A DNA stretch of 41,629 nucleotides, taken from positions 1 to 41,629 of IMG/VR virus record IMGVR_UViG_3300011443_000013. One strand, written 5' to 3'. The position numbers and the translations under genes are program-made. Numbering within the stretch: position 1 is the first letter of the stretch; every line of letters starts with the position of its first letter. The notes under the pieces are model-generated. The model searched no databases. It was not told the origin of the DNA and saw only the letters and a list, made by a program, of their open reading frames with translations. Positions 7,184 through 35,994 of the stretch are shown here, in pieces. The DNA comes from a virus. Its lineage: Duplodnaviria; Caudoviricetes.

Positions 7184-7197
7184 ATGTTTATTAAGTT

Positions 7198-7317
7198 TTA
7201 TCCCCATATCACTCTACATGAAAGCCAAATGAAGAACATTGAAATAATGAATCCGACTGCACACGAAGCCAATGTACTCCAGACGTGTAGCCATTTAGTG
7301 TCGATTGTTTTTTTCAT
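7198..7317 (-). CDS. Small membrane protein (39 aa), not in the ORF track
   Basis: MKKTIDTKWLHVWSTLASCAVGFIISMFFIWLSCRVIWG; ATGA overlap with the upstream gene. Confidence 0.55.
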   Translation of the reverse strand: MKKTIDTKWLHVWSTLASCAVGFIISMFFIWLSCRVIWG

Positions 7318-20313: not shown

Positions 20314-21474
20314 ATGACGGGGCACATTCAGATTTATGGCGGCATTGGCACAGAACGTAACGAGACAAGTTTTGAGAACGTCAAATCCCAACTAGACGCT
20401 GAAAAAGGATCTGAAGAACTAGCGGTCCACATCATGTCTCCAGGTGGGGACGTGTTCGAAGGAGAAGGGATCTACAACCTTCTAAAGAACGCTAACAAAC
20501 CCATAACAACTTACATTGAAGGTACTTGCGCCTCTATTGCGACACTTATCGCAGCAGCGGGCGACAAAATAGTTATGAACCGGACCGGAAGGTTTATGAT
20601 TCATAATCCCAAAATATCAGGTCTTAACTCACAGGCCGACGCAAGAGACTTACGCCATGTTGCCAACCAATTAGACAAGATTAAGACGCTCTTAATTGAT
20701 GTCTATGACCGGAAGACAACACTAGGCAAACCAAAACTATGGGAGTTGTACGACAACGAAACATGGTACACCGCAGACGAGGCCAAAACAGCCGGGTTTG
20801 TCGATGAAGTAGTAGACGCCATCAAGGCCGTAGCAAAAGTCGATTTTAAACATTACAACGAAATGAAAAATGAAGGACTATGGAAGAAGATTCAGAATCT
20901 ATTCCAGTTGAACAAGTTCAAAGCCGAGTTTGTGGAACAACTCGAAGACGGGACAGCTATTGTCGTGATGTCGGATGATGAGGACTGGACGGGCAAGGCT
21001 GTGATCTATGAAGATGGTACTAACCTTCCTGACGGGCAGTACAAATTGAAATCAGGAAAGGGATTCTCCGTGTCAGGGGGAACAATAGCAGAAGTTTACA
21101 CTGGGGAGCCACAAGCCCCCGCAACCGAAGAAGCCGAAGCGGCAGCAGATATGAAAGAACTAGAAACAGTAAAAGCACAGTTGGCTGAAGCTCTGGCGGC
21201 AAATGAAGCCCTTCAGGCTCAGGTACAACAACAAACAGCAGCCACTACAACGGCTAAAGCTGAAACAGTAAAGATCCAAAACCGGATGACCACCCTAGAG
21301 CAGGATTTCATCAAGCTCAAAGAGGAAGCATCGGTAACGTTCGGCGACAAGTCCGAGCCAAAGAAAGGTCCCGTCATCAAAAACGTGGGCAAGCAAGAAC
21401 AACAAGTCGATCCAATGGGCGATTACGCCAGAACCTATTTTAAAAACCGTAACATCATCAACGATGAAGACTAG
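20314..21474 (+). CDS. ClpP-type prohead protease fused to scaffold
   Basis: SPGGDVFEG, CASIAT, MIHNP, ETWYTADEAKTAGFVD; C-terminal coiled coil. Confidence 0.92.
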   Translation: MTGHIQIYGGIGTERNETSFENVKSQLDAEKGSEELAVHIMSPGGDVFEGEGIYNLLKNANKPITTYIEGTCASIATLIAAAGDKIVMNRTGRFMIHNPKISGLNSQADARDLRHVANQLDKIKTLLIDVYDRKTTLGKPKLWELYDNETWYTADEAKTAGFVDEVVDAIKAVAKVDFKHYNEMKNEGLWKKIQNLFQLNKFKAEFVEQLEDGTAIVVMSDDEDWTGKAVIYEDGTNLPDGQYKLKSGKGFSVSGGTIAEVYTGEPQAPATEEAEAAADMKELETVKAQLAEALAANEALQAQVQQQTAATTTAKAETVKIQNRMTTLEQDFIKLKEEASVTFGDKSEPKKGPVIKNVGKQEQQVDPMGDYARTYFKNRNIINDED

Positions 21475-22516
21475 AATTGAAAACTCAATGTATACGCCTG
21501 ACATCACGACGTATACCTATCCTGGCATCCTCTCCAAAGAGATCATCCAGAAGCCCAAGATCGATACTCCTCCACTATCGGCGCTCTATACGATCCGTAA
21601 TGGGGTGAGGTCCAAAGAGCAACTGCACCTTATGTCAGCGCTTTCGAGCGTGTTGGCGAAGGGAACAGCTACTTGTGAACCTACCTACACTCAGGCGGGA
21701 TCCATCACAGGTAAAACCCTTGAAACAGGGTTGTTTGAAATCAACCTTTCATGGTGTAAGAAAGAATTTCAGGGGCTTTTATCCACATTTAACGCACTGG
21801 GAGACGACCCGAACCTAGTTGGGGACGGTCTTTCAGGCTATGAACTGGGTGGGAAACTTCGCTCATTGATTTTAGATGAGATCCTGGAGGCTGCACGTAT
21901 TGACATCTGGAAAATTGCCTTTCTTGGTCAGTCAGCCTTCACTGGGTCTTCTGTTTACTCGACCATTGACGGTCTGTGGACTGCTTATTTGGATGCTTTC
22001 GCTTCTTATTGCGTGAAGACAGTACAGAACTCACTTCCTAACGGAGCGACTTCAGTATTGAACGCTGACGCAGCTAGGGATACGTTCAGGACGCTGTTCA
22101 CCGGCGCACCTTTGCTGTTGAAGCAAATGATTTCTTCTGGAAAAGTTAAACTGTTTGTAACGGGTTCAATGTGGGAAAACTACCTATTGAGTCTCGAAAC
22201 GAACTGCTGTGTTGAGGGTTCATGGAGACTCCAGCAGGACGGATCTAAAACACTTTACTACCGTGGCGTGGAACTTGTTCCTCTTTGGGTCATTGACTCA
22301 GCTTTGGAGAACGACACCACTCCTTATACAAACCTTTTGAGACACTTTGCGATTCTTACACTTCCTGAAAACAACATTTTCGGAACTGAGAACGCATCAG
22401 ACCTCAACAACCTGGAACTGTGCTACGATTGTAGGACAAAAACGACTTTCATTCAAGGCGAAATGAGATTCGGTGTTAACTTCTTGAATTGTGATTTAAC
22501 CGCGATAGCGTACTAA
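21464..22516 (+). CDS. Major capsid protein
   Basis: 350 aa directly after the protease/scaffold; IDGLW, YRGVELVP, NNIFGT, MRFGVN C-terminal pattern. Confidence 0.85.
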   Translation: MKTRIENSMYTPDITTYTYPGILSKEIIQKPKIDTPPLSALYTIRNGVRSKEQLHLMSALSSVLAKGTATCEPTYTQAGSITGKTLETGLFEINLSWCKKEFQGLLSTFNALGDDPNLVGDGLSGYELGGKLRSLILDEILEAARIDIWKIAFLGQSAFTGSSVYSTIDGLWTAYLDAFASYCVKTVQNSLPNGATSVLNADAARDTFRTLFTGAPLLLKQMISSGKVKLFVTGSMWENYLLSLETNCCVEGSWRLQQDGSKTLYYRGVELVPLWVIDSALENDTTPYTNLLRHFAILTLPENNIFGTENASDLNNLELCYDCRTKTTFIQGEMRFGVNFLNCDLTAIAY

Positions 22517-22517
22517 A

Positions 22518-23105
22518 ATGAACATAGTTCAATACGGACGACAACTGTTTCCGCTTAACTGCGGGATTACCGATGGCATGGACATCACCTGTGATGACCT
22601 CAAAAAACCCGGCGGAGTTTACCGGGTAGCTTGGGTGTTCAATCTTGGTGATCTTCGGACGCCGATCGATGTGACACTAGCTTCCTATATCACAAACTTG
22701 AACTTTAATACTTATGTATCACTGTACAGGTTTGAGTCGGCTAAATTTACTCACGAAGGGACGTGGGTAGAACAAGTCGGGGATTCTGGTAACGTGAGCT
22801 ATCAACAGACAGCTATCTTGCGATTAGCCAATGCCAACCCAACAGCGGACCGAGTAATCGAGAACGCGAGTGTTGCGGAGCTTGGAATAATTTTCAAAAC
22901 AAATGCTGGTGAGTTTCTGATATACGGCGCTGGTAACGGTTTAGCAGCAGATGCAAGCACGACCGGCGGAACTGGAAGACAGTCTACAGATTCCACTTTC
23001 ACAACGCTTAACCTGGTGGGAACTGAAAGGTACTTGCCTAAGCGGTTGTTGATCGGTGGATCTGTGACGACTACCCAACAGTATCTCGACGCGGCATCAT
23101 CTTAA
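22518..23105 (+). CDS. Major tail tube protein
   Basis: NCGITDG..C..KPGGV, IYGAGNGL, GGTG..STD, TLNLVGTE; followed by a terminator. Confidence 0.8.
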   Translation: MNIVQYGRQLFPLNCGITDGMDITCDDLKKPGGVYRVAWVFNLGDLRTPIDVTLASYITNLNFNTYVSLYRFESAKFTHEGTWVEQVGDSGNVSYQQTAILRLANANPTADRVIENASVAELGIIFKTNAGEFLIYGAGNGLAADASTTGGTGRQSTDSTFTTLNLVGTERYLPKRLLIGGSVTTTQQYLDAASS

Positions 23106-23122
23106 TAACCTGTAACCTAAAG

Positions 23123-23153
23123 AAAGAGCCCTTTTTAACCGAAGGGCTTTTTT
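23123..23153. terminator. Bidirectional intrinsic terminator
   Basis: aaagagccctt-tttaaccg-aagggctttttt between convergent genes. Confidence 0.85.
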
Positions 23154-23541
23154 ATTCAAATGGTTTTTTACCTGAAATCAAATCCTCAGGGCGATAATAT
23201 AATTTAGTCCCTATAGTTATAGGATATATCAATCCCTGTGTAGTCCATTCTCTTAGCTCTGTAACAGTTATATTCAGAAATTTAGCAGTCCTACGTTCAT
23301 CCATCATATACAAATTAGTTGGTAGTGTTTTTATTCGATGGAGAGCTTCAGAATTCGACCGCACTAATTGTGTCAATACTTCACCGACTTTATGAGAAAT
23401 CTTGTCCATGTGAAAGTACACAGTATCATCAATTTGCTCATTTATTAGCGATGCTATTGTTGTAGCTTGTTGTATAGGATTTAAAGAAATTCGCTTAGAC
23501 ACAATTTCTTTCCTACCCTTTCTCTTTTTTTTTATTGCCAT
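23152..23541 (-). CDS. DNA-binding protein with C-terminal HTH_17/MerR-like domain
   Basis: MMDERRTAKFLNITVTELREWTTQGLI....IGTKLYYRPEDL. Confidence 0.8.
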   Translation of the reverse strand: MAIKKKRKGRKEIVSKRISLNPIQQATTIASLINEQIDDTVYFHMDKISHKVGEVLTQLVRSNSEALHRIKTLPTNLYMMDERRTAKFLNITVTELREWTTQGLIYPITIGTKLYYRPEDLISGKKPFE

Positions 23542-23720
23542 GCTTTTTTGTCTGTCTCAATTAAATGTTCAAGTTGTTCACGTTTTATATACGTTCGGCG
23601 ACCTACTTTATAAGTAGTCAATTTTTTGAGTTCGATTTGTGCATAAACAAAGCCGCGTGAACATCCTAAATAGGCCATAGTCTCCCCCATTGTTAAAAAT
23701 TTCTTATCTATTATTTCCAT
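23532..23720 (-). CDS. Excisionase-like HTH_17 protein
   Basis: FLTMGETMAYLGCSRGFVY..I...KL..YKVGRRTYIKREQL. Confidence 0.85.
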   Translation of the reverse strand: MEIIDKKFLTMGETMAYLGCSRGFVYAQIELKKLTTYKVGRRTYIKREQLEHLIETDKKAWQ

Positions 23721-23805
23721 ATATGTACATATTGGTTTATATGTACAAAAATAATAATTTTATGTAGAATAATTGCGACACTTAAAAAAATACTTAAATT
23801 TAGCC
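23720..23805. promoter_or_regulatory. Divergent promoter/operator region
   Basis: Palindrome atatgtacatat (23721-23732); tatatgtaca repeats at 23720 and 23738, variant at 23759; minus-strand TATTTTTG at 23753-23746; plus-strand TTG-N19-TAAATTTA-gcc-ATG. Confidence 0.6.
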
Positions 23806-23982
23806 ATGTCGAAAGTAGAAATACTTGCAGAATTACGGGCTAATGGCCAAATAGATATTTTTCGTCGGTCTCCCAGTTGGGAAAAAGCATTTGATCTTTA
23901 TAAGAAGGAAAAAGGCGGTCATAAGAACATGAACTGCGGTTCTTGTTATGGCGATGTAAAGAAATGGCTACTGCTCAATTAG
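23806..23982 (+). CDS. Small CxxC protein
   Basis: Likely start MSKVEIL; NMNCGSCY. Confidence 0.65.
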   Translation: MSKVEILAELRANGQIDIFRRSPSWEKAFDLYKKEKGGHKNMNCGSCYGDVKKWLLLN

Positions 23983-24644
23983 TCCAGATATATTTTGAGC
24001 CTGAGCAAGAAAAAGAATTGTACCCTTTTTCAATTCCGTACAACAATAAAGGCAAGGTTACGGTATTTTTTGAGAATGAAGTCATTAGAAAGGTAGTTTC
24101 GGAGACAAAAGCGGATAAAATTGGAGTTTGCAGTTGGCGGTTAAAGGAAAAACAGCGGATGTACATCGGAAGACCGCGACCGATCACAGAAGAATTGATA
24201 AACAGCCACTATGAAGTTCTCTCTTTTACTCGCAACACGAAATACCATAAAATGTTGGCCTTCGCAGCCCAAAGTCACCTCCACTTTCAACCCGCTTTTG
24301 ATACAATCCTTAGATCAATTGGAAAATACCATGCATTTGAGATTAAAAATCCGATCTACCAGAATCACTTTATGGCTAGAGTGGACATCTATAGGCACTA
24401 TGTTAAAGAATATCTTTCGCCGACTATGGAATTGATTTCAAACGATCCTGTAATTAACGAAATGGCTATGCGGGATGCTAACTATTCAACACTGTTAAAA
24501 AAGGATCACTCGGACATGGTTGATAAGATAGGACTTCCTTATTATCCGATGGTTCCATTTTTACTTGAAAGACTGTTTTCTGTATTCTGTCAGAATGAAA
24601 AAATAAATGTAACGTATAATGATCAGCCTAATCCATCCAAGTAG
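23964..24644 (+). CDS. Putative glycosyltransferase (DUF4422-like)
   Basis: IGVCSWR, NHFMARVDIYRHY, PFLLERLFS. Confidence 0.6.
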   Translation: MATAQLVQIYFEPEQEKELYPFSIPYNNKGKVTVFFENEVIRKVVSETKADKIGVCSWRLKEKQRMYIGRPRPITEELINSHYEVLSFTRNTKYHKMLAFAAQSHLHFQPAFDTILRSIGKYHAFEIKNPIYQNHFMARVDIYRHYVKEYLSPTMELISNDPVINEMAMRDANYSTLLKKDHSDMVDKIGLPYYPMVPFLLERLFSVFCQNEKINVTYNDQPNPSK

Positions 24645-25284
24645 GGGAAGACCGGAGAAGGCGCACGATACCGCATGGACTTGGGCTGAAAAGTCGGGCC
24701 TTCCTTCTAGTCCTGCCCTCATGGCTGAGACTTCCGAATTTGAATATATTATTTCGTTGGATTTGGATGATCCATATAAGGATAAATATTCAGAACTATT
24801 TTTAAGCCAACAAAAGGTAATATCGAACAACAAATCAGTGGTAGAGGCAACAAATAAAGCGGCTGAATATTGCAGTGGGGATATAATTGTTTATCTATCA
24901 GATGATTTTCAATGTCCTAATAATTGGGGTCAATTACTTATTGCTGAATTTGCCAAATATTCAGGGCCAACGCTTATAAAAGTGGACGACTGTCTGCAAA
25001 AGTTCAATGTTCCGGTTTTGACTATCCCGATAATGAACCGTGAACTTTATAACAAACTCGGTTACTTCTTTCATCCTGATTTTAAGTCGATGTTCTGCGA
25101 TGAACATTTATACTGGAAGACCTATAACATGGGAGCTTTGAAGTTAGCACCGCATTTAAAATTCGAACATTGTCACGTGTCAGTAGGTAAAGCACCGGAC
25201 GATGAAACCTATCGCAGAAGCGCAAGGAACTGGGAACAAGGCAAGGCGATGTTTGCCAAACATAAACGGGCGGGATTTCCATGA
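24619..25284 (+). CDS. Glycosyltransferase family 2-like (GT-A)
   Basis: ISLIHPSRGRP, LDLDD, IVYLSDDF, FCDEHL, FEHCH. Confidence 0.85.
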   Translation: MISLIHPSRGRPEKAHDTAWTWAEKSGLPSSPALMAETSEFEYIISLDLDDPYKDKYSELFLSQQKVISNNKSVVEATNKAAEYCSGDIIVYLSDDFQCPNNWGQLLIAEFAKYSGPTLIKVDDCLQKFNVPVLTIPIMNRELYNKLGYFFHPDFKSMFCDEHLYWKTYNMGALKLAPHLKFEHCHVSVGKAPDDETYRRSARNWEQGKAMFAKHKRAGFP

Positions 25285-25865
25285 GTTCACTGGCGATATT
25301 AATATGTACTTTACCTGAACGCTTCGAAAAGTTGAAGCGGTTGAAGAACATTTTAGAGCCACAAGTCGAACGGTTCAAAGACCAGGTTCAGATAGTTTGT
25401 AATGATGCAGGGCGATCGATCCCAACAGGGACTAAACGTAATTTATTAATCGAACAAACCTCATCCGATTACTTCTGCTTTATTGATGATGATGATTGGG
25501 TGCATTCCTACTATGTAGATGAAATAGTTAAGGCTATGGAGTCCAGTCCTGATGTGATTACTTTCTGTGGATGGATCACCACCAACGGCCACAGCCGGGT
25601 AAACTGGCAGATCAAACTAGGGAACAGATACGAGGAACGGAACGGGATGTATTACAGGTTCCCTAATCACTTGGCCGTGATGAAGCGAGAATTAGTCCGG
25701 CATATCAAATTTCCTGACGTGTGGAAAGAGGAAGACTACCAATGGGCGGTACAGATCCACAATAGAAAGTTATTAAAGAGTGAAGTTCATATTCCTTTAG
25801 AATTATATCATTACGACTTCGACGAAACCAAACCACCCTATGCAAGACCCAATGGCGTTCGCTAA
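25281..25865 (+). CDS. Glycosyltransferase family 2
   Basis: LICTLPER, GTKRNLL, FCFIDDDD, EEDYQW. Confidence 0.88.
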   Translation: MSSLAILICTLPERFEKLKRLKNILEPQVERFKDQVQIVCNDAGRSIPTGTKRNLLIEQTSSDYFCFIDDDDWVHSYYVDEIVKAMESSPDVITFCGWITTNGHSRVNWQIKLGNRYEERNGMYYRFPNHLAVMKRELVRHIKFPDVWKEEDYQWAVQIHNRKLLKSEVHIPLELYHYDFDETKPPYARPNGVR

Positions 25866-26490
25866 ACAGATAGCGTATTCAAGCGAACAGACACTTTCAT
25901 TCAGCTATGCTATGGGGGCGAAATACAAGAACTCTGACGGGGTGTATGTTGAATGTGGGGTCGCTGCTGGGGCACAAGTTATCGCTATGGCTGCCGGGGG
26001 ACCGGACAAGATAATATACGCCTTCGATTCATTTGAAGGATTGCCATATCCAAGCAATAGAGATGACCAAATGCCGGGCATAAGGACATTAAAACAGTGG
26101 GAAATAGACGCACTGCCAGAACCCGGGAAACATCGGTTAGAATCTACCGGGGCTACCGTGGTCACTGTGGCTCAGTTCATGGAGAACTTACAGATAGTAG
26201 GCATTCAGGAATCTAACGTAGTGATCGTGCCGGGTTGGTTTGAGCATACCGTACCGTTCTATGCGGACGGACTACCGGAGATTGCAATACTAAGGTTAGA
26301 CGGGGACTTATATAATTCAACATGGGTCTGTTTAATGCACTTGTTTCCTAAGGTACTTCATGGGGGGTGTGTGATAATTGACGACTGGACGCTAGTAGGA
26401 TGTCAGGATGCCTGTAAGGAATATTTCGCTTTGATAGGATACGAACCGGACTACAAATTCATTTCAACGATAGCTTACTTTTTCAAGTGA
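25840..26490 (+). CDS. TylF/MycF-family sugar O-methyltransferase
   Basis: VECGVAAG, FDSFEGLP, GWFEHT, LRLDGDLYNST, IIDDW. Confidence 0.92.
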   Translation: MQDPMAFAKQIAYSSEQTLSFSYAMGAKYKNSDGVYVECGVAAGAQVIAMAAGGPDKIIYAFDSFEGLPYPSNRDDQMPGIRTLKQWEIDALPEPGKHRLESTGATVVTVAQFMENLQIVGIQESNVVIVPGWFEHTVPFYADGLPEIAILRLDGDLYNSTWVCLMHLFPKVLHGGCVIIDDWTLVGCQDACKEYFALIGYEPDYKFISTIAYFFK

Positions 26491-27071
26491 TGGAATTTAC
26501 TAAACAGTTTTATCAGGATACATGGGGTGAAGATGGCTACTACGAAAACTTTAGCTTCGGGGTAGGGATTGAGAATGTTTGTTCAGTCTCATTACATCCG
26601 TTCTTCTCATTGGAGAAAACAGCGTTAGAGATTGGTCCCGGAGGGGGAGTATTTACCTATCGGATGGTAAATAACTTTAAGCACCTGACAGCGATAGACG
26701 TCATACGGAAACCGAAAGCATTTGATGAGTATGAGAACTTCACTTATATCGAATTAGAAGACCAGAGTTTTGATTGTCCGGTAGAGGCTGATTCAATAGA
26801 CTTTTGTTTCTCGTATGGGTGTTTTTGTCACCTGTCAATAGATGCTTTGATTCAGTATTTCAAAGGGATAAACAAAGCATTAAAATCAGGGGGAGACTTC
26901 GTGTTTATGTTGTCAAACTATCCAGGGAAGGTAGGGGAGTGCTTGCCTTTAGGACACTTTGTACAAGGGGTTAAAGCAGTGGATTTAATTGTTGGGGACG
27001 GGTGGGAGATAGTAAATAAAAACCTACTTCCTGAACATAGGGATACATTGGTTCACCTTAAAAAGATATGA
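26487..27071 (+). CDS. Class I SAM-dependent methyltransferase
   Basis: LEIGPGGG, IDFCFSYGCFCHL, LKSGG. Confidence 0.9.
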   Translation: MMEFTKQFYQDTWGEDGYYENFSFGVGIENVCSVSLHPFFSLEKTALEIGPGGGVFTYRMVNNFKHLTAIDVIRKPKAFDEYENFTYIELEDQSFDCPVEADSIDFCFSYGCFCHLSIDALIQYFKGINKALKSGGDFVFMLSNYPGKVGECLPLGHFVQGVKAVDLIVGDGWEIVNKNLLPEHRDTLVHLKKI

Positions 27072-27709
27072 TAATACTTTCAATCTTAATTCCAACCATT
27101 CCAGACCGGGTCGAACGGTTTACTTATTTGTACAATGAAGTACATAGACAGATTGCCTACATGGACACCGTACATCCAACACTAGGAAGGATTGAGGTAT
27201 TAATAGACGACTCTCCCAAGTTCTTAGAAGGGGGACTGTCAATAGGAAAGAAACGGGAGGCGCTATTGAAACGGGCTGAGGGGAATTACTTATGTTACCT
27301 GGATGATGACGAAAGCATCGCCCCGAACTACGTTGAAACATTGGTAAGGCTTTGCCATCAGGGGGCGGATGTTTGCACCTTCAGGAACATTTCAAAGATG
27401 GATACTTACTGGATGGTGGTTGACATGAGCTTGAATTATAAGACCAACGACCAGGCTACCCCTGCTTTTATTGTCCGCCGGACCCCGTGGCATTCATGTC
27501 CTGTTAAAACGCATTTAGCAAAGATGTATTCTTTCGAAAACTCCAACTATGGGGAGGACTGGCAGTGGTTTCAACAAGTGCTAACGCATTGCACAGTTGA
27601 AGCGCACACGGACGCGGTAATACATCAATACAACCACGGTAAGCATTCAGAAGCAGATAAAATAACTAACCATGTACAGTCAGAACTCAGAGGAACAGCA
27701 CATACTTAA
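27068..27709 (+). CDS. Glycosyltransferase family 2 (paralog of 25281..25865)
   Basis: LIPTIPDR, IGKKREALL, YLDDDE, GEDWQW. Confidence 0.88.
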   Translation: MIILSILIPTIPDRVERFTYLYNEVHRQIAYMDTVHPTLGRIEVLIDDSPKFLEGGLSIGKKREALLKRAEGNYLCYLDDDESIAPNYVETLVRLCHQGADVCTFRNISKMDTYWMVVDMSLNYKTNDQATPAFIVRRTPWHSCPVKTHLAKMYSFENSNYGEDWQWFQQVLTHCTVEAHTDAVIHQYNHGKHSEADKITNHVQSELRGTAHT

Positions 27710-28277
27710 TTACTTCGGAGACTACGTAGGGACGTTCCTTGACTTAGGAGCCAATGATGGGGAAACCTTTTCTAATACCCGGGCACTAGCGTTGAAAGGA
27801 TGGAAGGGAATTCTAATTGATTGCAGTCCTACGGCAGTCACTCGGTGCAAAGAATTGTACAAAGATTTCAAAGGAATTTACGTGTATGATTATGCGATCT
27901 ATAAACACAACGGCAAGGAGATATTTCAGAACTCCGGGGCGCTATGTACTCCTTCCGATACTGGCCTGGTTGGTACTTTCCATCAACACGAGAAGGCCCG
28001 ATTTGATAAAAAGGTTCCTTATACCTCTGTTGAAGTCAAAACCTTCAAATGGAAAACCGCTTTGAACAGGTGGAAGATAAAAGAGTTTGACATGGTTTCA
28101 CTTGACATTGAAGGATCTGAAATCTACGTTCTGCCTGACATGGACCTATCCAAAACGAGATTGATTTGTATTGAATGGAATGGGAAACCGGAATTAAAAG
28201 AAGCCTATGAGAAATATTTGGACGGGTTCACGATCATTTATACGTCAGCCGAAAACATCGTTTATGCCAGAATTTGA
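27672..28277 (+). CDS. FkbM-family methyltransferase
   Basis: YSQNSEE, FLDLGANDG..SNTRAL..GWKG, SLDIEGSE, ICIEW. Confidence 0.92.
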   Translation: MYSQNSEEQHILNYFGDYVGTFLDLGANDGETFSNTRALALKGWKGILIDCSPTAVTRCKELYKDFKGIYVYDYAIYKHNGKEIFQNSGALCTPSDTGLVGTFHQHEKARFDKKVPYTSVEVKTFKWKTALNRWKIKEFDMVSLDIEGSEIYVLPDMDLSKTRLICIEWNGKPELKEAYEKYLDGFTIIYTSAENIVYARI

Positions 28278-28842
28278 TATAAACCTTTACGATGATGAGT
28301 TCTTTCAGTGGCACGTAACCCATGCCCGAAAATACTCCATGCGCACAATGGATTGGTACATCCAAAAATACAAACCTGATTCAGTCATAGACTTCGGCTG
28401 TGGGATAGGTAGCTACCTGGAAGCAGCTTACGACTACGATATTAAAATTCAAGGCTATGAGATTTCATTAGATGCCTTCCGCTACACTCCTGAATTTATC
28501 CGGCCATATATCCACTACACCGACTGTACTAATGTGTTATTACCGGGGGTGTTTGACACGGTGATAAGTTTTGAAACCGCCGAACATATTGAACCGGAAG
28601 GGACTAACCAATTCATTAAGAACCTTGTAAACGCTACTGGTAAGACGTTACTCTTCACAGCCGCCCCGCCAGGTCAGGAAGGAACCGGGCATATCAACTG
28701 CCGAACTCGAGACTTCTGGATGATGGAGTTTAGCGAGTTCCTAATCTTCAATGACGTGTTAACAGGGGAGATTTCAGAGGCGTGGGAGAAGCTAGGAGCC
28801 CCGTGGTATATCGTTAAGAACCTTTTAGTATTCAGCCGATGA
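28264..28842 (+). CDS. Class I SAM-dependent methyltransferase
   Basis: VIDFGCGIG, ISFETAEHI, FTAAPPGQEGTGHIN; likely start MPEFD. Confidence 0.9.
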   Translation: MPEFDINLYDDEFFQWHVTHARKYSMRTMDWYIQKYKPDSVIDFGCGIGSYLEAAYDYDIKIQGYEISLDAFRYTPEFIRPYIHYTDCTNVLLPGVFDTVISFETAEHIEPEGTNQFIKNLVNATGKTLLFTAAPPGQEGTGHINCRTRDFWMMEFSEFLIFNDVLTGEISEAWEKLGAPWYIVKNLLVFSR

Positions 28843-29468
28843 CAATAGTAAATTTCGCTACCGGACATTACCTCAGAGGGCAACAGAGACTTTCCCAAAG
28901 CCTTCACGCCTATAATTTCTTAGGGTTCACCGATTATAGACAGATAGGAAGCCCACCACACGCGGCGAGTCCCTATCAATTCAAGATCCACGCCATCGAA
29001 AAGGCTTTTGAAAAAGATGATATAGTCCTATGGGCTGATGCTTCGATGTGGCTTGTCGGGGACTTGTCAAAGATTGAGACACTGATAAAAGAGGACGGGT
29101 ATTTTATGTCAGAGGCGGGGCACTGGGTAGGGACATGGACCAATGACTTCACAAAAGCCTATTTCAACCTGACAGAAGAAGAGGCTAAAGTACCGGGTGG
29201 TTTCTTCATGTTTTCAGCGGGTCTGACGGGACTTAATAAGCAAAGCCCTGTAGCTATGGAGTTCTTTCGACAGTGGAAGGAGAGCGCCCTTGCAGGGTGT
29301 TTTAAAGGGGACTGGTCAAACCACAGACACGACATGACTTGCGGGTCGATCATCGCCCAACGGCTAGGAATGAAGTACCAGCGGGGCGGTCAGCATATGA
29401 GCTACATTGGGAACGGTTATTCAGCACCCGAGGCGGGGACGGTCTTTCATCTACAGGCATGCGTATAA
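28839..29468 (+). CDS. Putative glycosyltransferase (GT-A, nucleotide-diphospho-sugar transferase-like)
   Basis: PYQFK..I, VLWADAS, HRHDMT. Confidence 0.7.
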   Translation: MTIVNFATGHYLRGQQRLSQSLHAYNFLGFTDYRQIGSPPHAASPYQFKIHAIEKAFEKDDIVLWADASMWLVGDLSKIETLIKEDGYFMSEAGHWVGTWTNDFTKAYFNLTEEEAKVPGGFFMFSAGLTGLNKQSPVAMEFFRQWKESALAGCFKGDWSNHRHDMTCGSIIAQRLGMKYQRGGQHMSYIGNGYSAPEAGTVFHLQACV

Positions 29469-29653
29469 TTTTAGCGTGGTGGTTCTGGATCACCAATAGG
29501 AATAACGAACTAGCTCAAAAGAGACTTAAAATCTGTGCTGGGTGTGAGTTAAGAAAAGCCTTTGTATGTGGAGTTTGTTACTGCCCATTACAAGCAAAGG
29601 CAAGACTTAACGATGAAATCTGTCCACATCCCAAAGGGGATAAGTGGAAATAA
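29459..29653 (+). CDS. Small Cys-rich protein (DUF6171-like)
   Basis: RLKICAGC..CGVCYCPLQAKAR...CP..KW; likely start MRIILAWW. Confidence 0.75.
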   Translation: MRIILAWWFWITNRNNELAQKRLKICAGCELRKAFVCGVCYCPLQAKARLNDEICPHPKGDKWK

Positions 29654-29693
29654 AGCCCGAAGTTTTCCAGGCTCCGGGCTTCGTGGTTTTTTT
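29653..29693 (+). terminator. Terminator-like hairpin
   Basis: aagcccgaagttt-tcc-aggctccgggctt with a T7 run 5 nt downstream. Confidence 0.5.
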
Positions 29694-29761
29694 ACCTTCA
29701 CTTTATGGAAACAATGTCAAGTGAACATGACAAATATCACAATTTAAATGCCATTTAAAAA

Positions 29762-30559
29762 ATGCGGTTATGTGCTATTTACAACGTCTGGGCGGATTGG
29801 GATATCCTTGAATATTCGCTTAAAAACGTTGAACCTTTAGTTGATGGAATCATCATAGTAGGATCCACAAAGAGCAATTTTGGGGAAATTTTTCCTATCC
29901 CTGCGCATTTTTTAAACAGGGTCGTAATCCGGGAGCCACAATTTAAACAGGCGGCGGACAGCGAACGGGACAAGAGGAACTTTGGATTAGAACTCGCAAG
30001 GAAGGAAGGCTATACTCATTTTCTAACAATTGACTCAGATGAATTCTACGACCCTATTGAGTTCTTAAAGGGCCGTGAAATGATGCTATCAGATTTGAAC
30101 GGATTGGTTGTTAAATGCTATACCCTATTCGCTAAACCAACACTAACTATTGGTTATGATATTACCCTTGTCCCCTTTATTCATAAGCTCACACCGACGA
30201 TCAGACATGACTTCAACCGGAACTATCCATTTGCTTGGCAAGGTCCACAAATAAGAATAGACCCTACCAGAAGCCTTAACATTAACTCAGGGGTTGAACT
30301 CACTGACTTTACAATGTTTCATGCGTCATGGGTTCGCTCAGACTTCAAACGCAAGATCCGTAACTCCACAGCAAAGGCTAATTTGGAGCGAAGCACAATC
30401 TGGGAAGATTTGGTATTGGCAAAAGACGGATATTTTGTTAAGTTTTACCAAAAGCATTTACACACGGTGGTGAATCGCTTCAATATCCCAGACTATGGCG
30501 TTTTGGACGAAAATTTACAATCTCTGGCGACAGCCGACGAAAAGAACCAACCTGGCTGA
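29762..30559 (+). CDS. Glycosyltransferase family 2-like
   Basis: LEYSLKNVEPLVDGIII, ERDKRNFGL, LTIDSDEFY, MFHASWVR. Confidence 0.8.
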   Translation: MRLCAIYNVWADWDILEYSLKNVEPLVDGIIIVGSTKSNFGEIFPIPAHFLNRVVIREPQFKQAADSERDKRNFGLELARKEGYTHFLTIDSDEFYDPIEFLKGREMMLSDLNGLVVKCYTLFAKPTLTIGYDITLVPFIHKLTPTIRHDFNRNYPFAWQGPQIRIDPTRSLNINSGVELTDFTMFHASWVRSDFKRKIRNSTAKANLERSTIWEDLVLAKDGYFVKFYQKHLHTVVNRFNIPDYGVLDENLQSLATADEKNQPG

Positions 30560-32093
30560 AGGTAAATACCTTCCCTACTTCAACAACGATAACTTTCCTT
30601 TACAGTGGCATGATGCGATCTCAAAAAGTCCATCGGCGTCTTCGTGCGTTTCCACTATTCAGGATTTCTTAGAGGGGTCCGGGTTCTCACCGGATGAACT
30701 AGAGAAGATAGTTGTCAACGCTAAAGGGGAAACTTTCTTCCAGGTGCATCAAAAGACCTGTAAAGATTTCGGAGAATTTGAAGGGTTTTATTGGTTGCTT
30801 CGCTTCAACATTCAGGGGAAAATTACCGAGTGGGAGTTACTTCCTTTTGAGAACTGTCGATTAGGACAACCGGACGGGGCTGGGTATATTTCAAAGATCC
30901 TTTACAACCCTTTCTTCGGAACGTCAGACTTCACCACTGTTAATAAAAATACAACGTGGTATGATGTTTATAACCCTGTAACGATCAAAGCACAAATCAG
31001 GGATCAGGGCGAAGCGTTCAGGGGACAAGTTTATTTCTGCGGAACTACCAACGCTTTAAGTCGATACTACCCGATGCCACAGGCGCACAGTGCTATGGAC
31101 TGGTTTGAGATCGAACACGGGGTGTCTACCTACCATAAAGAGAACATTAAAAACGGGCTACTGATACCTTACATCTTAGTGAAGTATGGCAATCCAAACG
31201 ACCCTGCTAATAACCCGGAAGGGGACAGTTCAGAACAGAAACAAACCATAGCAGAAGCGTTCGATGAGGTGATTTCAGAGAACTTCATGGGAGCGGAACG
31301 AGTAGGAAACCTTATGGTGCATTGGGTAAACAACAAGGAAGAAAAGCCTGAAATTATTCCTTTGCCAACCAACGCAACCGGCGACCACTTTTTAGCCACA
31401 GCAACCCAGGCCACTAAGAATATAACAGTAGCCTTTAAAGTCCCTGCGATACTAGCAAACATAAACGAAGGGGTTTCTTTGGGAGGCGATGGTAACATGA
31501 TCCGGGTAGCTGTCAAACTAATGCAGCAACGGATGATCCCTAAACAGCGGATCCTGACGGACAAGTATCAAATGATTCTAAAGAACTTTCAGACTCCGTA
31601 CAATCAGGATATTAGTATTACTCCGTACAACCCCTACCCTGAGTTAGAAGTACTGGACGATAAAATCTGGAATGCTTTAACGAAGGAAGAACAACGGGAC
31701 TGGATTGAACAGAATACAGATGTGATTTTAACAGAAGTCACGCCAACGACTATACAACCAATTCCACAAGCACGGCAGTTAAACGCTATCCCTGTAGGGT
31801 TCCCGGATAAAATTCGGAACTCCGTTAAGAAAGCGGTGGACTTTAACGATAAAATGGGTATCAAATGTATCAGCACTGCGTCGCGCACGGTGTCAGATGC
31901 GATCATCAGTAATCAAAGCATGGGTTACAAGCAACTGAAACGGATCCACGGCTACCTGGAAAGAAACGACACGTTTAAAAACAAATTATTAAGTGAAGGA
32001 TGTGAGGTATTAAAGTATCACGCCTGGGGAGGAAGGGAAATGTTTGACTTTTTAGAGGGTAAACTTAAAGAAGTAACAGCATGGCTAAACTAG
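30495..32093 (+). CDS. Portal protein with an extra C-terminal domain
   Basis: DNFPL..SPSASSC..GSG, YYPMP..SA, IKNGL, FMGAERVG, ITVAFKVP; upstream of the adaptor. Confidence 0.88.
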   Translation: MAFWTKIYNLWRQPTKRTNLAEGKYLPYFNNDNFPLQWHDAISKSPSASSCVSTIQDFLEGSGFSPDELEKIVVNAKGETFFQVHQKTCKDFGEFEGFYWLLRFNIQGKITEWELLPFENCRLGQPDGAGYISKILYNPFFGTSDFTTVNKNTTWYDVYNPVTIKAQIRDQGEAFRGQVYFCGTTNALSRYYPMPQAHSAMDWFEIEHGVSTYHKENIKNGLLIPYILVKYGNPNDPANNPEGDSSEQKQTIAEAFDEVISENFMGAERVGNLMVHWVNNKEEKPEIIPLPTNATGDHFLATATQATKNITVAFKVPAILANINEGVSLGGDGNMIRVAVKLMQQRMIPKQRILTDKYQMILKNFQTPYNQDISITPYNPYPELEVLDDKIWNALTKEEQRDWIEQNTDVILTEVTPTTIQPIPQARQLNAIPVGFPDKIRNSVKKAVDFNDKMGIKCISTASRTVSDAIISNQSMGYKQLKRIHGYLERNDTFKNKLLSEGCEVLKYHAWGGREMFDFLEGKLKEVTAWLN

Positions 32094-33161: not shown

Positions 33162-33805
33162 TGGCTAACAAGAAAATTTCGGAATTACCGGCAGCCTCTA
33201 CCCCACTAGCGGGGACCGAACTTGTCGAATTAGTTCAAGGGGGGGTTAATGTACAAGCTACCGCGGCGGACATGGGCGGAGGAAGTGGAGGGCACGTTAT
33301 AGAAGAAGAAGGAACCCCGTTAACCCAACGGGCCAATCTTAATTTTGTTGGTGCTGGCGTGACTGCCGCGGATGCAGGAGGTAAAACGGTAGTTACTGCA
33401 AATGCCGCTACTGAATCACAAGTAGGGTCGGTCGAATTAGCCACAGCAGCAGAAACTTTAACAGGAACATCGACAACGCTTGCCACGCATCCGGCAGGAA
33501 TACTGGCTACTTATCCGATAGGACTAGCTTCAATAAACGCCACGGGCACAGTAATCTCATTCGCTATACCACAGATATACGGGCTTACTACAGCGGTATC
33601 TGGAAACGTAACCGCTTCTCATACGGGGGCAATAGTGGGTATGAATCAGATCGTACGACACAACAGCGGTACAGAGCCTACGTTCGGAAGTGAATTTAAG
33701 TTGGTTGAGGGTTCGCGTGGGTATGTGACCAGCGTCGATAATTTTATTTTTATGATTTATTATTCGTCTACAAAGATACAGTATTCAATAACTCAGGAGG
33801 AATGA
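33161..33805 (+). CDS. Fibre/decoration protein (KKISEL N-terminus)
   Basis: MANKKISELPAA, EEGTPL..NLNFVGAGVTA, ATESQVGSVELAT fibre motifs. Confidence 0.75.
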   Translation: MANKKISELPAASTPLAGTELVELVQGGVNVQATAADMGGGSGGHVIEEEGTPLTQRANLNFVGAGVTAADAGGKTVVTANAATESQVGSVELATAAETLTGTSTTLATHPAGILATYPIGLASINATGTVISFAIPQIYGLTTAVSGNVTASHTGAIVGMNQIVRHNSGTEPTFGSEFKLVEGSRGYVTSVDNFIFMIYYSSTKIQYSITQEE

Positions 33806-35664
33806 GATTTAAAAAGCCATTTACGACCGTCAACCGTTCAGGAAATACGGCAGGATATACGTTTATATATGATACTCTTTCGGATAGAACGAGGACAAGT
33901 CTTTATTATGACTTCACCAAGCTAACAGGGACTAACGGCACAGCTATTTCTAACGGTAACGCTGGGTTAGTTGACCAAAGTGGTAACGGGCATACCGCCA
34001 CAATTATCAATACGCCGGTTATTAGGGATGTTTCGATAAATGGAAGTACAATTAAAACGCTTCACGATGAGAGTACGAACTGTGTTAACACTAACACAAC
34101 GGGGGCTAGTTTTTTAGGCTCTACTTTTAACGGGGCTACAGGGTTTGAAATTTATATTGTTCTGCAGCTTCAGGACGGACAACCGGCAAGCACTCAAAAT
34201 ATACTGGGCGGACGCAAGCCAACAAACATTGGAGTAAACGTCTTTTTAGCCACAGATGGAAAAATGGCTATAGCGGTAGGTACAACGTCAGGTGTTTTTG
34301 TATGGAATACCAATGGTGCAGTATTTACTAATGGAGTGAATGAGACCGCAGTATTGAGGATGAGGGTTAATTTTTCATCTGGTGTAAGCTGCTATAAAAA
34401 TGGAGTTTTATTTGCCGGTAATTTTTTATCAGGTACAATATCGTCACCCACTCCGTCACAGATTGCCACAGATTTCACGGTGAATATGTACATAGGGGCG
34501 CTGAATGATAACGGTACGCCCACTTCTCCCGGCGGTATTACTTCTATTTTCAAGGTTCTTTTCATGCCGTTGCAGTCTACTATTACAGCCTTTCCGATGG
34601 ATGCTATTCAGGAGGAGCTAATGAGTTTCACCTGGGTGAACTGGGTGGCTGATGAAGTGCATGTTACGGCTGCGAACGTGGCTACACAGCGCACAGCGGC
34701 TATTACTGCGTTCACAAACGGGAACGGTCTTCATACCATTAGCCCGACAACTACGACTGGGATAACCGGAGCTATACATATTTGCAATACGGCGAATGTT
34801 TCTAATGCTTCATCATGGGACCGTCTTACGTTTGCAATGAATGATGTAGACGGGTTTAGCTGGTCGCATAAATGTTATTTAGCGCATACCAACCAAACGC
34901 CTAACGGGAAATTGCTTATTGTGTGTAACGGTCACGCGTCGGATGTAGCGAGTGGGTATGAGTCAATGTTTACGCAGGCGCTAGGCTATGGATATGATGT
35001 TTTATATTGTGCTATGCCTGTAGTGGGCGATAACACCGAAACCAATCCAACAATTACCCTGACAAGTTCATCAGGTCACAACCAAATGTTAAGCGGCGGG
35101 CTGGATCGGGTGGGTTACAGTCCGATTGAATTGTTTTTATTCGATAAGTTCTCAGCCATAAACCATTTAAACGGAAGCTATTCTGAAATTATAATAAACG
35201 GTAACAGCGGGGGTGGGTGGACGTCGTGTATTATTGGGGCGCTGGACGAGAGGGTTGATATAACATTTACTAACCGTGGTATGGGTCTGCGGTCGTTTAA
35301 GTTTAAGGAAACTGCCATTGACTACGAACAGGGTGGAATGCCTACCTACGCATGGACTTCAGCGATAGCGGGTACGACCGTTTCCGGTACTCGGTTATAT
35401 GCTATTTATACAGCTACAACTTTTTTTGATTTGTTAGCCATGTGTGCCAGTTCAGGGCGTCAGGTGTACAGGTTCACGCACCAGGCGGATGATTGCTGTT
35501 TCTTCGGTACGCAAAGCTGGGTGTGGATGGATGTAATGAAAACACTGTGCGGAACGATGGGAGGTCATTTCACAAACAGGGTAGATTTTAATCCAGCATA
35601 TGCTTCTCACATGTTTAGCGCCAAAGATATTACAGATATGTTTCATTACTTGGGAGACTTGTGA
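33802..35664 (+). CDS. Receptor-binding-type protein: LamG-like lectin domain plus alpha/beta hydrolase
   Basis: LVDQSGNGH..YKNG..MYIGA LamG-like N-half; NGH, GNSGGGW (GxSxG), DDCCF, SH in the C-half. Confidence 0.7.
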   Translation: MRFKKPFTTVNRSGNTAGYTFIYDTLSDRTRTSLYYDFTKLTGTNGTAISNGNAGLVDQSGNGHTATIINTPVIRDVSINGSTIKTLHDESTNCVNTNTTGASFLGSTFNGATGFEIYIVLQLQDGQPASTQNILGGRKPTNIGVNVFLATDGKMAIAVGTTSGVFVWNTNGAVFTNGVNETAVLRMRVNFSSGVSCYKNGVLFAGNFLSGTISSPTPSQIATDFTVNMYIGALNDNGTPTSPGGITSIFKVLFMPLQSTITAFPMDAIQEELMSFTWVNWVADEVHVTAANVATQRTAAITAFTNGNGLHTISPTTTTGITGAIHICNTANVSNASSWDRLTFAMNDVDGFSWSHKCYLAHTNQTPNGKLLIVCNGHASDVASGYESMFTQALGYGYDVLYCAMPVVGDNTETNPTITLTSSSGHNQMLSGGLDRVGYSPIELFLFDKFSAINHLNGSYSEIIINGNSGGGWTSCIIGALDERVDITFTNRGMGLRSFKFKETAIDYEQGGMPTYAWTSAIAGTTVSGTRLYAIYTATTFFDLLAMCASSGRQVYRFTHQADDCCFFGTQSWVWMDVMKTLCGTMGGHFTNRVDFNPAYASHMFSAKDITDMFHYLGDL

Positions 35665-35798
35665 CGCAGAAACAACTAGTAAAGGAGTTGATAAACTATA
35701 TCACCAATATGAACGAGCCGGAGCGAACGGCATTTCTGCTGGCTAGTTATAAGTTTAAAAAGAAACCAAAAAAAGAGGATTGCGGATGCAATAAATAA
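35661..35798 (+). CDS. Small basic protein ending DCGCNK (45 aa), not in the ORF track
   Basis: GTGA overlap with the upstream stop; fills the gap exactly. Confidence 0.5.
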   Translation: MTQKQLVKELINYITNMNEPERTAFLLASYKFKKKPKKEDCGCNK

Positions 35799-35799
35799 T

Positions 35800-35994
35800 A
35801 TGGAACTACTCTTAACACTTCTTATTTACATTCTGGTCTTCGCTGTAATATTTTACGCGGTGATTGAGATTGTGAAAGCTATGAACGTACCGGTACAGTT
35901 TGCTAACGTGATTAAAGTTATCATTCTAGCACTGTTTGTGATACTTATTATCTCACTGTTCTTCGGGGTTAATTTGCCGAAGCTTCGATTGTAA
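35800..35994 (+). CDS. Small two-TM membrane protein
   Basis: Two long hydrophobic helices separated by MNVPVQF. Confidence 0.75.
   Translation: MELLLTLLIYILVFAVIFYAVIEIVKAMNVPVQFANVIKVIILALFVILIISLFFGVNLPKLRL

What the first reader, a model, noticed from the sequence alone, without database searches (positions are those of the whole stretch)
23964..30559. Ten-enzyme glycosyltransferase/methyltransferase island inside the virion morphogenesis region: candidate methylated-glycan virion coat
Seen: about six GT-A-type genes and four SAM methyltransferases (TylF/MycF, FkbM and two class I) are interleaved and mostly overlap one another. They fill ~16% of the genome between the capsid/tail-tube genes and the portal, and the last GT overlaps the portal start. 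None shows a signal peptide or TM segment, and I found no nucleotide-sugar synthesis, flippase, polymerase or base-hydroxylase gene. Established: TylF/MycF enzymes O-methylate sugars, some mycobacteriophages glycosylate capsid and tail-tube proteins using GTs encoded among structural genes, chlorovirus PBCV-1 builds methylated capsid glycans, and Gtr-type seroconversion needs membrane proteins. Inference: a cytoplasmic assembly line that builds a multi-sugar, multiply O-methylated glycan on virion proteins from host NDP-sugars. A pathway of this size in a 41-kb Bacteroidota phage may be undescribed.
Basis: partly seen in the sequence, partly recalled or inferred. Interest (0 to 1): 0.85.

Follow-up and report, generated by a model that had tools for sequence, protein, structure and literature searches.

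The report
Swappable sugar-coat cassette in Bacteroidota phages
An uncultured 42-kb phage, probably of Bacteroidota, carries six predicted sugar-adding and four methyl-adding enzyme genes between its likely capsid genes and its portal gene, its relatives carry reshuffled versions at the same spot, and the set likely coats the virus particle with a methylated sugar chain, as the papers read here report only for mycobacteriophages and algal giant viruses.

Summary
All ten ORFs are intact. Three GT2s and four methyltransferases hit Pfam. The other three are also glycosyltransferase-like: g1 folds like the GT111 domain of WbbM, g9 has a GT-A fold, and g11 is a divergent GT2. Two GT2s and the TylF enzyme are homologous to mycobacteriophage Che8 gp108; the TylF enzyme also matches Corndog gp35. 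The essential Che8 gp110/Corndog gp38 enzyme has no homologue here.

All 32 distinct relatives spanning tube to portal carry an island that starts with g1. Its contents vary from two enzymes to a wholly different GT11/GT47/GT25 set, some with NDP-sugar enzymes. This genome's island is a mosaic of two lineages. The same cassette sits in an unrelated myovirus, and g9 homologues lie near giant-virus capsid genes. No integrase or thymidylate-synthase-like gene was found in 20 genomes.

Best reading (0.65): a cytoplasmic pathway that builds an O-methylated glycan on virion proteins; the target is inferred, not shown. It is a new variant of a known kind. This scan noted similar islands before on other DNA.

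The parts
20314..21474 (+). Clp-type head maturation protease (context)
   Evidence: PF00574, phrog_94
21464..22516 (+). Probable major capsid protein, 17.7% Ser+Thr (candidate acceptor)
   Evidence: Family profile hits Bacteroides phage BS-TP3 gp3 (E 8e-29 in a 12-protein set), which its depositors annotate as XkdG/major capsid by structure alignment; 3 of 18 members hit phrog_1623 'virion structural protein'; not folded
22518..23105 (+). Putative tail tube, by position and size only; 17.4% Ser+Thr (candidate acceptor)
   Evidence: phrog_19091 (unknown function) in 20 of 20 members; the BS-TP3 homologue gp4 is labelled 'head-tail adaptor' by its depositors
23121..23154 (.). Terminator-like hairpin after the tube gene, with U-tracts on both strands
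   Evidence: -16.6 kcal/mol, z -5.3 on the + strand; found on the - strand by the scan
23152..23720 (-). Private insertion of two HTH_17 genes; not part of the cassette
   Evidence: PF12728; absent from the relatives mapped; a contig of run X3 skips 23156-23818
23806..23982 (+). 58-aa CxxC protein before g1 in 31 of 32 relatives; probably virion backbone rather than glycan pathway
   Evidence: profile hits the N-terminus of BS-TP3 gp5, E 3.5e-5, in a phage without the island
23964..24644 (+). g1: GT111/DUF4422-like GT-A fold without DxD; first gene in every island; candidate priming or core enzyme
   Evidence: AF2 pLDDT 90; best match WbbM N-terminal domain 6u4b_A 7-261, Z 13.3, rmsd 3.3, 190 aligned, next row Z 8.1; Atlas neighbours carry DUF4422; 32 of 32 loci
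24619..25284 (+). g2: GT2 (D95-D96)
   Evidence: PF00535, phrog_14945; homologous to the N-terminus of phiAsp2 Pas34
25281..25865 (+). g3: GT2 (D69-x-D71-D72), homologue of the Che8 gp108 GT domain
   Evidence: PF00535, phrog_14775/8858; 30% over 178 aa to Che8 gp108
25840..26490 (+). m4: TylF/MycF/NovP-type sugar O-methyltransferase
   Evidence: PF05711 E 6e-27; PDB hits NovP and mycinamicin III 3''-O-methyltransferase; profile hits the Che8 gp108 C-terminus and Corndog gp35
26487..27071 (+). m5: class I SAM methyltransferase, substrate unknown
   Evidence: PF08241 E 5e-9; 5 of 23 near relatives
27068..27709 (+). g6: GT2 (D79-x-D81), paralogue of g3
   Evidence: PF00535; hhalign g3/g6 99.9%; 35% over 189 aa to Che8 gp108; 18 of 23 near relatives
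27672..28277 (+). m7: FkbM-family methyltransferase, the only core methyltransferase
   Evidence: PF05050, TIGR01444 above cutoff; 23 of 23 near relatives
28264..28842 (+). m8: class I SAM methyltransferase (the longest ORF starts at 28207), substrate unknown
   Evidence: Sub-cutoff PF13489/PF13649; 3 of 23 near relatives
28839..29468 (+). g9: GT-A fold enzyme (D67-x-S69, H162-R-H-D165)
   Evidence: AF2 pLDDT 96; best VIA match PBCV-1 capsid glycosyltransferase 2p6w, Z 14.6, rmsd 3.0, 171 aligned, tied with BoGT6a Z 13.7; 23 of 23 near relatives
29459..29653 (+).
   Evidence: Sub-cutoff PF19668, phrog_13558; 27 of 32 relatives
29653..29693 (+). Terminator-like hairpin and U-tract separating g11 and the portal from the rest
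   Evidence: -16.4 kcal/mol, z -3.1
29762..30559 (+). g11: divergent GT2 (D91-x-D93-E94) overlapping the portal; second candidate for the protein-priming step
   Evidence: 13 of 41 family members hit PF00535; profile's best PDB hit is the GmaR GT domain, E 0.007; 23 of 23 near relatives
30495..32093 (+). Portal protein (context)
   Evidence: phrog_11226 E 1e-48

Best explanation
The island encodes six predicted glycosyltransferases and four methyltransferases without membrane segments, which likely build a short O-methylated sugar chain, probably rich in 6-deoxy sugars, from host nucleotide sugars and SAM on virion proteins (likely capsid and/or tail tube) during lytic assembly. Inferred order: a core enzyme primes the protein. 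g1 is favoured because it is universal and is inherited with the virion genes; g11 is the alternative. g2, g3, g6 and g9 would extend and branch the chain, and m4, m7, m5 and m8 would cap its hydroxyls. The inner genes are exchanged between phages, which would give variable particle surfaces, much like O-antigen serotype loci. Shown: gene content, folds, position, conservation, mosaicism and purifying selection. Inferred: activity, donors, acceptor, order and benefit.
For: (1) Position: all 32 distinct capsid- or tube-anchored loci that span tube to portal hold an island starting with g1, and 72 of 73 tube loci (not deduplicated) with at least 1.8 kb downstream have g1. (2) Homology: g3 and g6 match the Che8 gp108 GT domain, and m4 matches gp108's methyltransferase domain and Corndog gp35. 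All 63 cultured-phage hits of g3 are actinophage records, and the two regions opened lie among or just after virion genes (LittleE, phiAsp2). (3) Far-clade islands hold a GT25 related to Che8 gp110 (E 2e-7 in a 15-protein set). (4) Relatives add a GDP-mannose 4,6-dehydratase or an epimerase inside the island, with GT11, which points to deoxysugar oligosaccharides; m4's solved relatives methylate deoxysugars. (5) g9 homologues (about 35%) lie in GT/Gmd/FkbM clusters near NCLDV major capsid genes (L075, L079). (6) The cassette also sits inside the morphogenesis region of an unrelated myovirus. (7) dN/dS is 0.01-0.19 wherever it could be computed. (8) g1 tree distances track portal (0.64) and tube (0.55), while g2, g3, g9 and g11 give 0.13-0.31. 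(9) Tyrosine integrase and ThyS were found in 0 of 20 genomes, with controls ringing.
Against: No glycan, activity or expression data exist. The island has no homologue of Che8 gp110 or Corndog gp38, which PMC12363180 calls the essential GTs, nor of gp109/gp37 or gp36. In the myovirus the cassette lies antisense to the structural genes and beside an unrelated capsid, which weakens a strict enzyme-capsid pairing. g1's congruence with the backbone may reflect its edge position only, and the one characterised GT111 extends sugar chains rather than priming proteins (PMC12269835). The capsid and tube lack an obvious C-terminal extension, and neither was folded. The capsid and tube seed alignments came from g9-found loci, so the survey leans towards island bearers. 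Cultured gut phages with the same gene order (BS-TP3, BV283P2) have no island, so this virion type can be built without it.
Confidence: 0.65

Rival explanations
1. The enzymes alter a host envelope glycan or glycoprotein from the cytoplasmic side (lipid-linked O-unit, LPS or Bacteroidota O-glycan), masking the receptor or blocking superinfection.
For: GT111, GT11, GT25, GT47, Gmd and FkbM are typical of cell-surface polysaccharide loci (established knowledge; GT111 in PMC12269835). Soluble GTs can act on lipid-linked intermediates. The cassette moved to an unrelated myovirus and sits antisense there.
Against: The position between head genes is fixed across the family. No flippase, polymerase or membrane protein is present. 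Tyrosine integrase was found in 0 of 20 genomes, and the capsid profile found only one 3.2-kb contig among 185,579 prokaryote genomes, so there is little sign of a lysogenic stage to benefit.
Confidence: 0.14
2. The enzymes glycosylate or methylate a host or phage non-virion protein, or a small metabolite, during late infection (counter-defence or lysis-related).
For: TylF and FkbM families are known from natural-product tailoring (established knowledge). Two relatives add a radical SAM/SPASM gene. m5 and m8 have no sugar-specific relative among solved structures.
Against: Six GTs of different families with swappable deoxysugar genes fit a surface glycan better. The closest characterised phage homologues belong to virion-glycosylation cassettes.
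Confidence: 0.1
3. DNA sugar hypermodification: the GTs add mono- to trisaccharides to hydroxymethylated bases against restriction.
For: Phage GT-A enzymes do this, some in neighbourhoods with structural genes (10.1101/2023.12.21.572611, abstract and section 9). The genome carries a DNA-methyltransferase-like gene at 5756-7207.
Against: ThyS-like gene in 0 of 20 genomes (control rang in 10 of 14). No DNA polymerase or nucleotide-metabolism hit in the ORFs scanned. The 5756-7207 gene is private to this genome (1 of 20). The cited paper regards GTs without a neighbouring 5mYOX or ThyS as less likely DNA modifiers.
Confidence: 0.06
4. Mostly passenger cargo collected at a recombination hotspot, with only one or two active enzymes.
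For: Two relatives carry only g1 plus one GT2 (L157, L162). HNH genes and an IS1595 transposase insert here often.
Against: All ten frames are intact, catalytic and SAM-binding residues are conserved, and dN/dS is below 0.2 where computable.
Confidence: 0.05

Closest known systems
Mycobacteriophage virion glycosylation cassettes: cluster O Corndog gp35-38 and cluster F Che8 gp108-110 (Freeman et al. 2023, not held; seen through passages in PMC12363180, PMC11256854, PMC13445384, PMC12619734; Corndog layout from passages of PMC4351075)
   Same: [quoted passage not shown]
   Different: Ten enzymes against three or four. No homologue of the essential gp110/gp38, nor of gp109/gp37 or gp36. Adds GT111-like, FkbM and A064R-fold enzymes. 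Bacteroidota host, family-wide variable contents, glycosylation not shown.
Chlorovirus PBCV-1 capsid N-glycan pathway (A064R, A061L; passages of PMC9614988)
   Same: Virus-encoded soluble GTs and SAM methyltransferases build and O-methylate a deoxysugar-rich capsid glycan. g9's best structural match is the PBCV-1 capsid GT 2p6w (Z 14.6), taken to be A064R domain 1 from recall.
   Different: Eukaryotic giant virus. 12% identity, and the match is tied with GT6 enzymes, so no orthology or shared specificity is shown.
WbbM N-terminal domain, GT111/DUF4422 (passages of PMC12269835)
   Same: g1 model superposes on 6u4b_A 7-261 at Z 13.3, well above all other chains.
   Different: 14% identity, no PF14393 hit for g1 itself. 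WbbM-N is a UDP-Galf transferase in O-antigen synthesis; g1's donor and acceptor are unknown.
Actinoplanes phage phiAsp2 pas33-35 and Mycobacterium phage LittleE genes 15-21
   Same: GT genes beside virion genes; Pas33 and LittleE gp15 match g3, and the Pas34 N-terminus matches g2.
   Different: Smaller sets in actinophages; no function was found for them in the papers read.

Membership tests
Actinophage virion-glycosylation cassette (Che8/Corndog) | Soluble GT genes with an O-methyltransferase in or beside the virion module | tested here: met
Actinophage virion-glycosylation cassette (Che8/Corndog) | Homologues of the Che8 gp108 domains and Corndog gp35 | tested here: met
   g3 profile E 4e-37, g6 5e-30, m4 3e-14 in a 15-protein set; BLAST 25-35% identity
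Actinophage virion-glycosylation cassette (Che8/Corndog) | Homologue of the essential GT Che8 gp110/Corndog gp38 | tested here: not met
   No island profile hits either protein better than E 0.045 over about 30 residues; only the far-clade GT25 does
Actinophage virion-glycosylation cassette (Che8/Corndog) | Capsid or tail tube carries a glycan that depends on these genes | not testable with these tools
   Uncultured phage; needs mass spectrometry
Phage DNA sugar hypermodification | ThyS-like pyrimidine hydroxymethylase | tested here: not met
   PF00303 in 0 of 20 genomes; control rang in 10 of 14
Phage DNA sugar hypermodification | TET/JBP dioxygenase | tested here: inconclusive
   PF12851 in 0 of 20, but the control rang nowhere
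Gtr-type seroconversion | Membrane flippase and membrane-bound transferases | tested here: not met
   Hydropathy maximum 1.53 in the island proteins; no such Pfam hit
Gtr-type seroconversion | Temperate phage with an integrase | tested here: inconclusive
   Tyrosine integrase in 0 of 20, control 14 of 14; serine recombinases were not searched
GT111 (g1) | Fold of the WbbM N-terminal domain | tested here: met
   Z 13.3, rmsd 3.3, 190 aligned
GT111 (g1) | Sequence match to PF14393 DUF4422 | tested here: not met
   No hit at E 0.01; 12% of members of a neighbouring Atlas cluster carry it
GT111 (g1) | UDP-galactofuranose transferase activity | not testable with these tools
   Needs an assay
TylF/MycF sugar O-methyltransferase (m4) | PF05711 above cutoff and similarity to solved members | tested here: met
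   94.9 bits against a cutoff of 23; NovP and mycinamicin III 3''-O-methyltransferase hits
PBCV-1 A064R-type capsid GT (g9) | Closer to A064R domain 1 than to other GT-A enzymes | tested here: inconclusive
   Z 14.6 against 13.7 for BoGT6a, tied within 1; Foldseek rank 6

The most novel reading that the evidence does not exclude
A large family of environmental Bacteroidota phages has glycan 'serotypes' on its particles. A GT111-fold enzyme (g1), inherited with the virion genes, primes capsid and tail proteins by a chemistry unrelated to the mycobacteriophage initiator. A swappable locus of GTs, deoxysugar enzymes and O-methyltransferases then sets the coat, moves between siphoviruses and myoviruses, and shares enzyme families with giant-virus capsid glycosylation clusters.
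Probability: 0.3. Interest if true: 0.78.

Novelty: new variant of a known kind. Interest (0 to 1): 0.52.

Why it matters
In the papers read here, virion glycosylation in tailed phages is reported for three mycobacteriophages (Che8, Corndog, Myrna), and its benefit is discussed as antibody shielding. A family of probably lytic phages, whose best sequencing-run holders are freshwater sediment and groundwater samples, keeps a roughly 6-kb glycan locus under purifying selection and keeps reshuffling it. That implies a selective force in nature other than antibodies, such as grazing, proteases, adsorption to particles or host recognition. The natural series from a two-enzyme island (L157, L162) to ten enzymes gives a direct way to find the priming enzyme. 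It also supplies uncharacterised GT111-like and GT-A enzymes, and warns against scoring such genes as host-metabolism AMGs.

Tried and rejected
Freeman et al. 2023 is not held, so its acceptor sites, gene knockouts and supplements were not seen; they bear on which Che8 genes matter.

tblastn of g1, g11 and the capsid against 50,697 phage records found nothing. Profiles of g1, capsid and tube found no meaningful PDB sequence hit; g1's top hit, RsgI, is taken as chance. m7, m5 and m8 have no informative solved relative.

hhalign between g11 and the far-clade GT2_4 gave only 4% probability, so they are positional analogues, not shown orthologues. The TET/JBP search was uninformative because its control was silent.

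Promoter scans (sigma-70, and the Bacteroidota-type TANNTTTG motif, recalled) were at chance level. Repeat search in 20-33 kb gave only chance-like pairs. Counting the recalled Bacteroidota D-S/T-x sequon and conserved Ser/Thr columns in capsid and tube gave no decisive acceptor site.

No RNA holder was listed. In the possible source run X1, identical contigs bridge g1-g2, g3-m4-m5-g6 and g11-portal, but no listed piece bridges 25256-25292, 27682-27924 or 29631-29743 (the table was cut). The g6-m7 junction therefore rests on the record alone.

The literature search for FkbM enzymes acting on sugars gave nothing relevant, so that link is recalled knowledge. No complex prediction was run, because the report claims no binding.


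Full report
OBSERVATION. The window is a complete phage genome with direct terminal repeats. The + strand late region runs terminase (10317), tail genes, tape measure, Clp protease, probable capsid, putative tube, island, portal. Ten enzyme ORFs fill 23964-30559 and are named here g1, g2, g3, m4, m5, g6, m7, m8, g9 and g11. Genes g1 to g9 overlap by 1-38 nt. A 64-aa Cys-rich ORF and a terminator-like hairpin (z -3.1) follow, then g11, which overlaps the portal by 65 nt. None of the ten has a hydrophobic segment above 1.53. The host is probably Bacteroidota: 37 of 38 cultured-phage portal hits have a named Bacteroidota host, and the start regions show no evident Shine-Dalgarno motif by eye.

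ENZYME IDENTITY. g2, g3 and g6 are GT2; m4 is TylF; m7 is FkbM; m5 and m8 are class I methyltransferases, m8 below cutoff. m4's solved relatives include NovP and mycinamicin III 3''-O-methyltransferase. Three ORFs had no family hit. g9 (120-row alignment, pLDDT 96) is GT-A; its best match is the PBCV-1 capsid GT 2p6w at Z 14.6, tied with BoGT6a at 13.7. g1 (pLDDT 90) matches the GT111 domain of WbbM at Z 13.3, with the next row at 8.1. g11 is a divergent GT2: 13 of 41 family members hit PF00535, and the profile's best PDB hit is GmaR (E 0.007), a flagellin GlcNAc transferase (passages of PMC9638930). The GmaR match is weak and covers the generic GT2 N-terminus. The count of six GT-like genes and four methyltransferases stands.

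FLANKS. The capsid profile hits BS-TP3 gp3 (E 8e-29 in 12 proteins), annotated by its depositors as XkdG/major capsid. The tube profile hits gp4 (E 2e-7), which they label head-tail adaptor. The small CxxC gene hits gp5. BS-TP3 and BV283P2 keep the order protease, capsid, tube-like gene, portal with no island, and L168 has none beside its tube homologue. The tail-tube label is unproven.

RELATIVES. Loci were fetched first with g9 (23 viral and 56 metagenome loci), then with capsid and tube profiles (60 and 55 loci). Those profiles were seeded from g9-found loci. Of the capsid- or tube-anchored loci, 46 span tube to portal, and they collapse to 32 by g1 sequence; shorter loci were dropped from this count. 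All 32 have g1. In the near clade (23), g2, g3, m7, g9 and g11 occur in 23, g6 in 18, m4 in 13, m5 in 5, m8 in 3 and Gmd in 2. In the far clade (9; capsid 28-36% identical where computed) the contents differ: GT2_4 in 9, GT11, MT24, another GT2 and FkbM in 7 each, an epimerase in 6, GT47 in 4 and GT25 in 3 (Pfam labels; counts, with profiles built from these same loci). L157 and L162 hold only g1 and GT2_4, in 1.56 kb. The median span is 6.3 kb. An epimerase/dehydratase gene is present in 8 of 20 near-complete genomes; 7 of those were seen inside the island.

MOSAIC. This genome is the only one found with both m4 and m5 and with four methyltransferases. Its tube, portal and g6 group with one lineage (capsid 76-85% identical in the closest members), and m4 is most similar to that lineage. 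Its g2, g3, m7 and g11 group with another lineage whose portal is 36-39% identical (supports 0.94-1.0). Identical contigs in the possible source run bridge most of these junctions but not g6-m7. Across 23 genomes, tree distances of g1 correlate with portal (0.64), tube (0.55) and capsid (0.42); 8 of its 9 supported splits are compatible with the tube tree. g2, g3, g9 and g11 give 0.13-0.31 against capsid, tube and portal, although g11 adjoins the portal. This shows co-inheritance, not co-evolution. dN/dS for island genes is 0.01-0.19 where synonymous sites were not saturated.

WIDER SPREAD. G020 (64% complete) is a myovirus with sheath, baseplate and unrelated terminase, portal and capsid genes. 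It carries g1, g2, g3, FkbM, g9, g11 and TylF homologues (32-57%) between terminase and sheath, antisense, and no backbone gene of the window matches it. The most distant g9 hits include giant-virus contigs where g9 lies in GT2/GT47/GT25/Gmd/FkbM clusters near the NCLDV major capsid gene (L075, L079).

COMPARISON WITH KNOWN SYSTEMS. Che8 gp108-110 and Corndog gp35-38 were fetched. g3 and g6 are homologous to the gp108 GT domain; m4 matches gp108's C-terminal domain and gp35. Nothing in the island matches gp109, gp110, gp36, gp37 or gp38. PMC12363180 (passages) names gp110 and gp38 as essential for capsid glycosylation and lists Che8, Corndog and Myrna as glycosylated. [quoted passage not shown] PMC9614988 (passages) describes the rhamnosylation and O-methylation steps of A064R and A061L. 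The island therefore works like these systems by inference but fails membership of the Che8/Corndog cassette. Six searches on phage virion glycosylation listed no description of such an island in Bacteroidota phages; listings only were seen for most hits, and subscription papers are not held.

RIVALS. DNA hypermodification lacks its handle-making gene: ThyS in 0 of 20 with the control ringing, TET inconclusive (10.1101/2023.12.21.572611, abstract and section 9). Host envelope modification stays open because soluble GTs could act on lipid-linked units. Against it are the fixed late position, the absence of membrane proteins and the absence of a tyrosine integrase.

EARLIER NOTES. The scan holds 13 findings with these words in at least 12 genomes, three of them apparently on this phage group. 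They gave the lead to Che8 and Corndog, which I tested. They are not independent support.

VERDICT. The feature is real, conserved and under selection. The virion glycan reading gets 0.65. It is a new variant of a known kind. The new points are the GT111-like universal first gene, the two-enzyme minimal islands, the serotype-like exchange of inner genes, the transfer to a myovirus and the link to giant-virus clusters. Interest 0.52.

Noticed in passing
window 4947-7207 (-): A 483-aa DNA-methyltransferase-like gene (phrog_498) with an extra N-terminal region, coupled to a 270-aa Cys-rich ORF of no family that looks radical-SAM-like by eye. The methyltransferase is private to this genome (1 of 20).
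   Followed up: partly
window 23152-23720 (-): AT-rich insertion of two HTH_17 genes between the tube terminator and the island; absent in mapped relatives and skipped by a contig of run X3.
   Followed up: partly
L157:9251-9955, L162:2127-2831: Minimal islands with only g1 and one GT2_4; the best natural test of the priming step.
   Followed up: partly
L210:2416-8043 (G020): The same cassette in an unrelated myovirus, antisense between terminase and sheath, with an extra GT2 and a short ORF that resembles the start of a methyltransferase.
   Followed up: partly
L075:6585-16607, L079:1016-7317, L078: Giant-virus contigs with a g9 homologue in glycan gene clusters; in L075 and L079 these lie near the NCLDV major capsid gene, and L075 also has Gmd, FkbM and a C-methyltransferase.
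   Followed up: partly
L123:9393-10184, L127:9391-10176: Radical SAM/SPASM gene inside the island of two relatives.
   Followed up: no
L005, L006, L019, L024, L052 and others; L013:8633-9562: Frequent HNH-like endonuclease insertions and one IS1595 transposase inside islands; a possible driver of the gene exchange.
   Followed up: no
window 23806-23982 and 29459-29653: Two small Cys-motif proteins flank the island in 31 and 27 of 32 relatives; function unknown, possibly Zn-binding assembly factors.
   Followed up: partly
L137, L140, L198, L202, L203, L204: In part of the far clade the capsid follows the tape measure gene without a separate protease hit, in some as one long ORF of about 750 aa, suggesting a protease-capsid fusion.
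   Followed up: no
L058:6878-7498 (-), L025:1595-2230 (-): A related antisense ORF of about 210 aa of no Pfam family is inserted after the tube gene in these two relatives.
   Followed up: no
window 33802-37634: Two large Ser/Thr-rich proteins after the head-tail genes, variable among relatives; likely receptor-binding proteins and further possible glycan acceptors.
   Followed up: no
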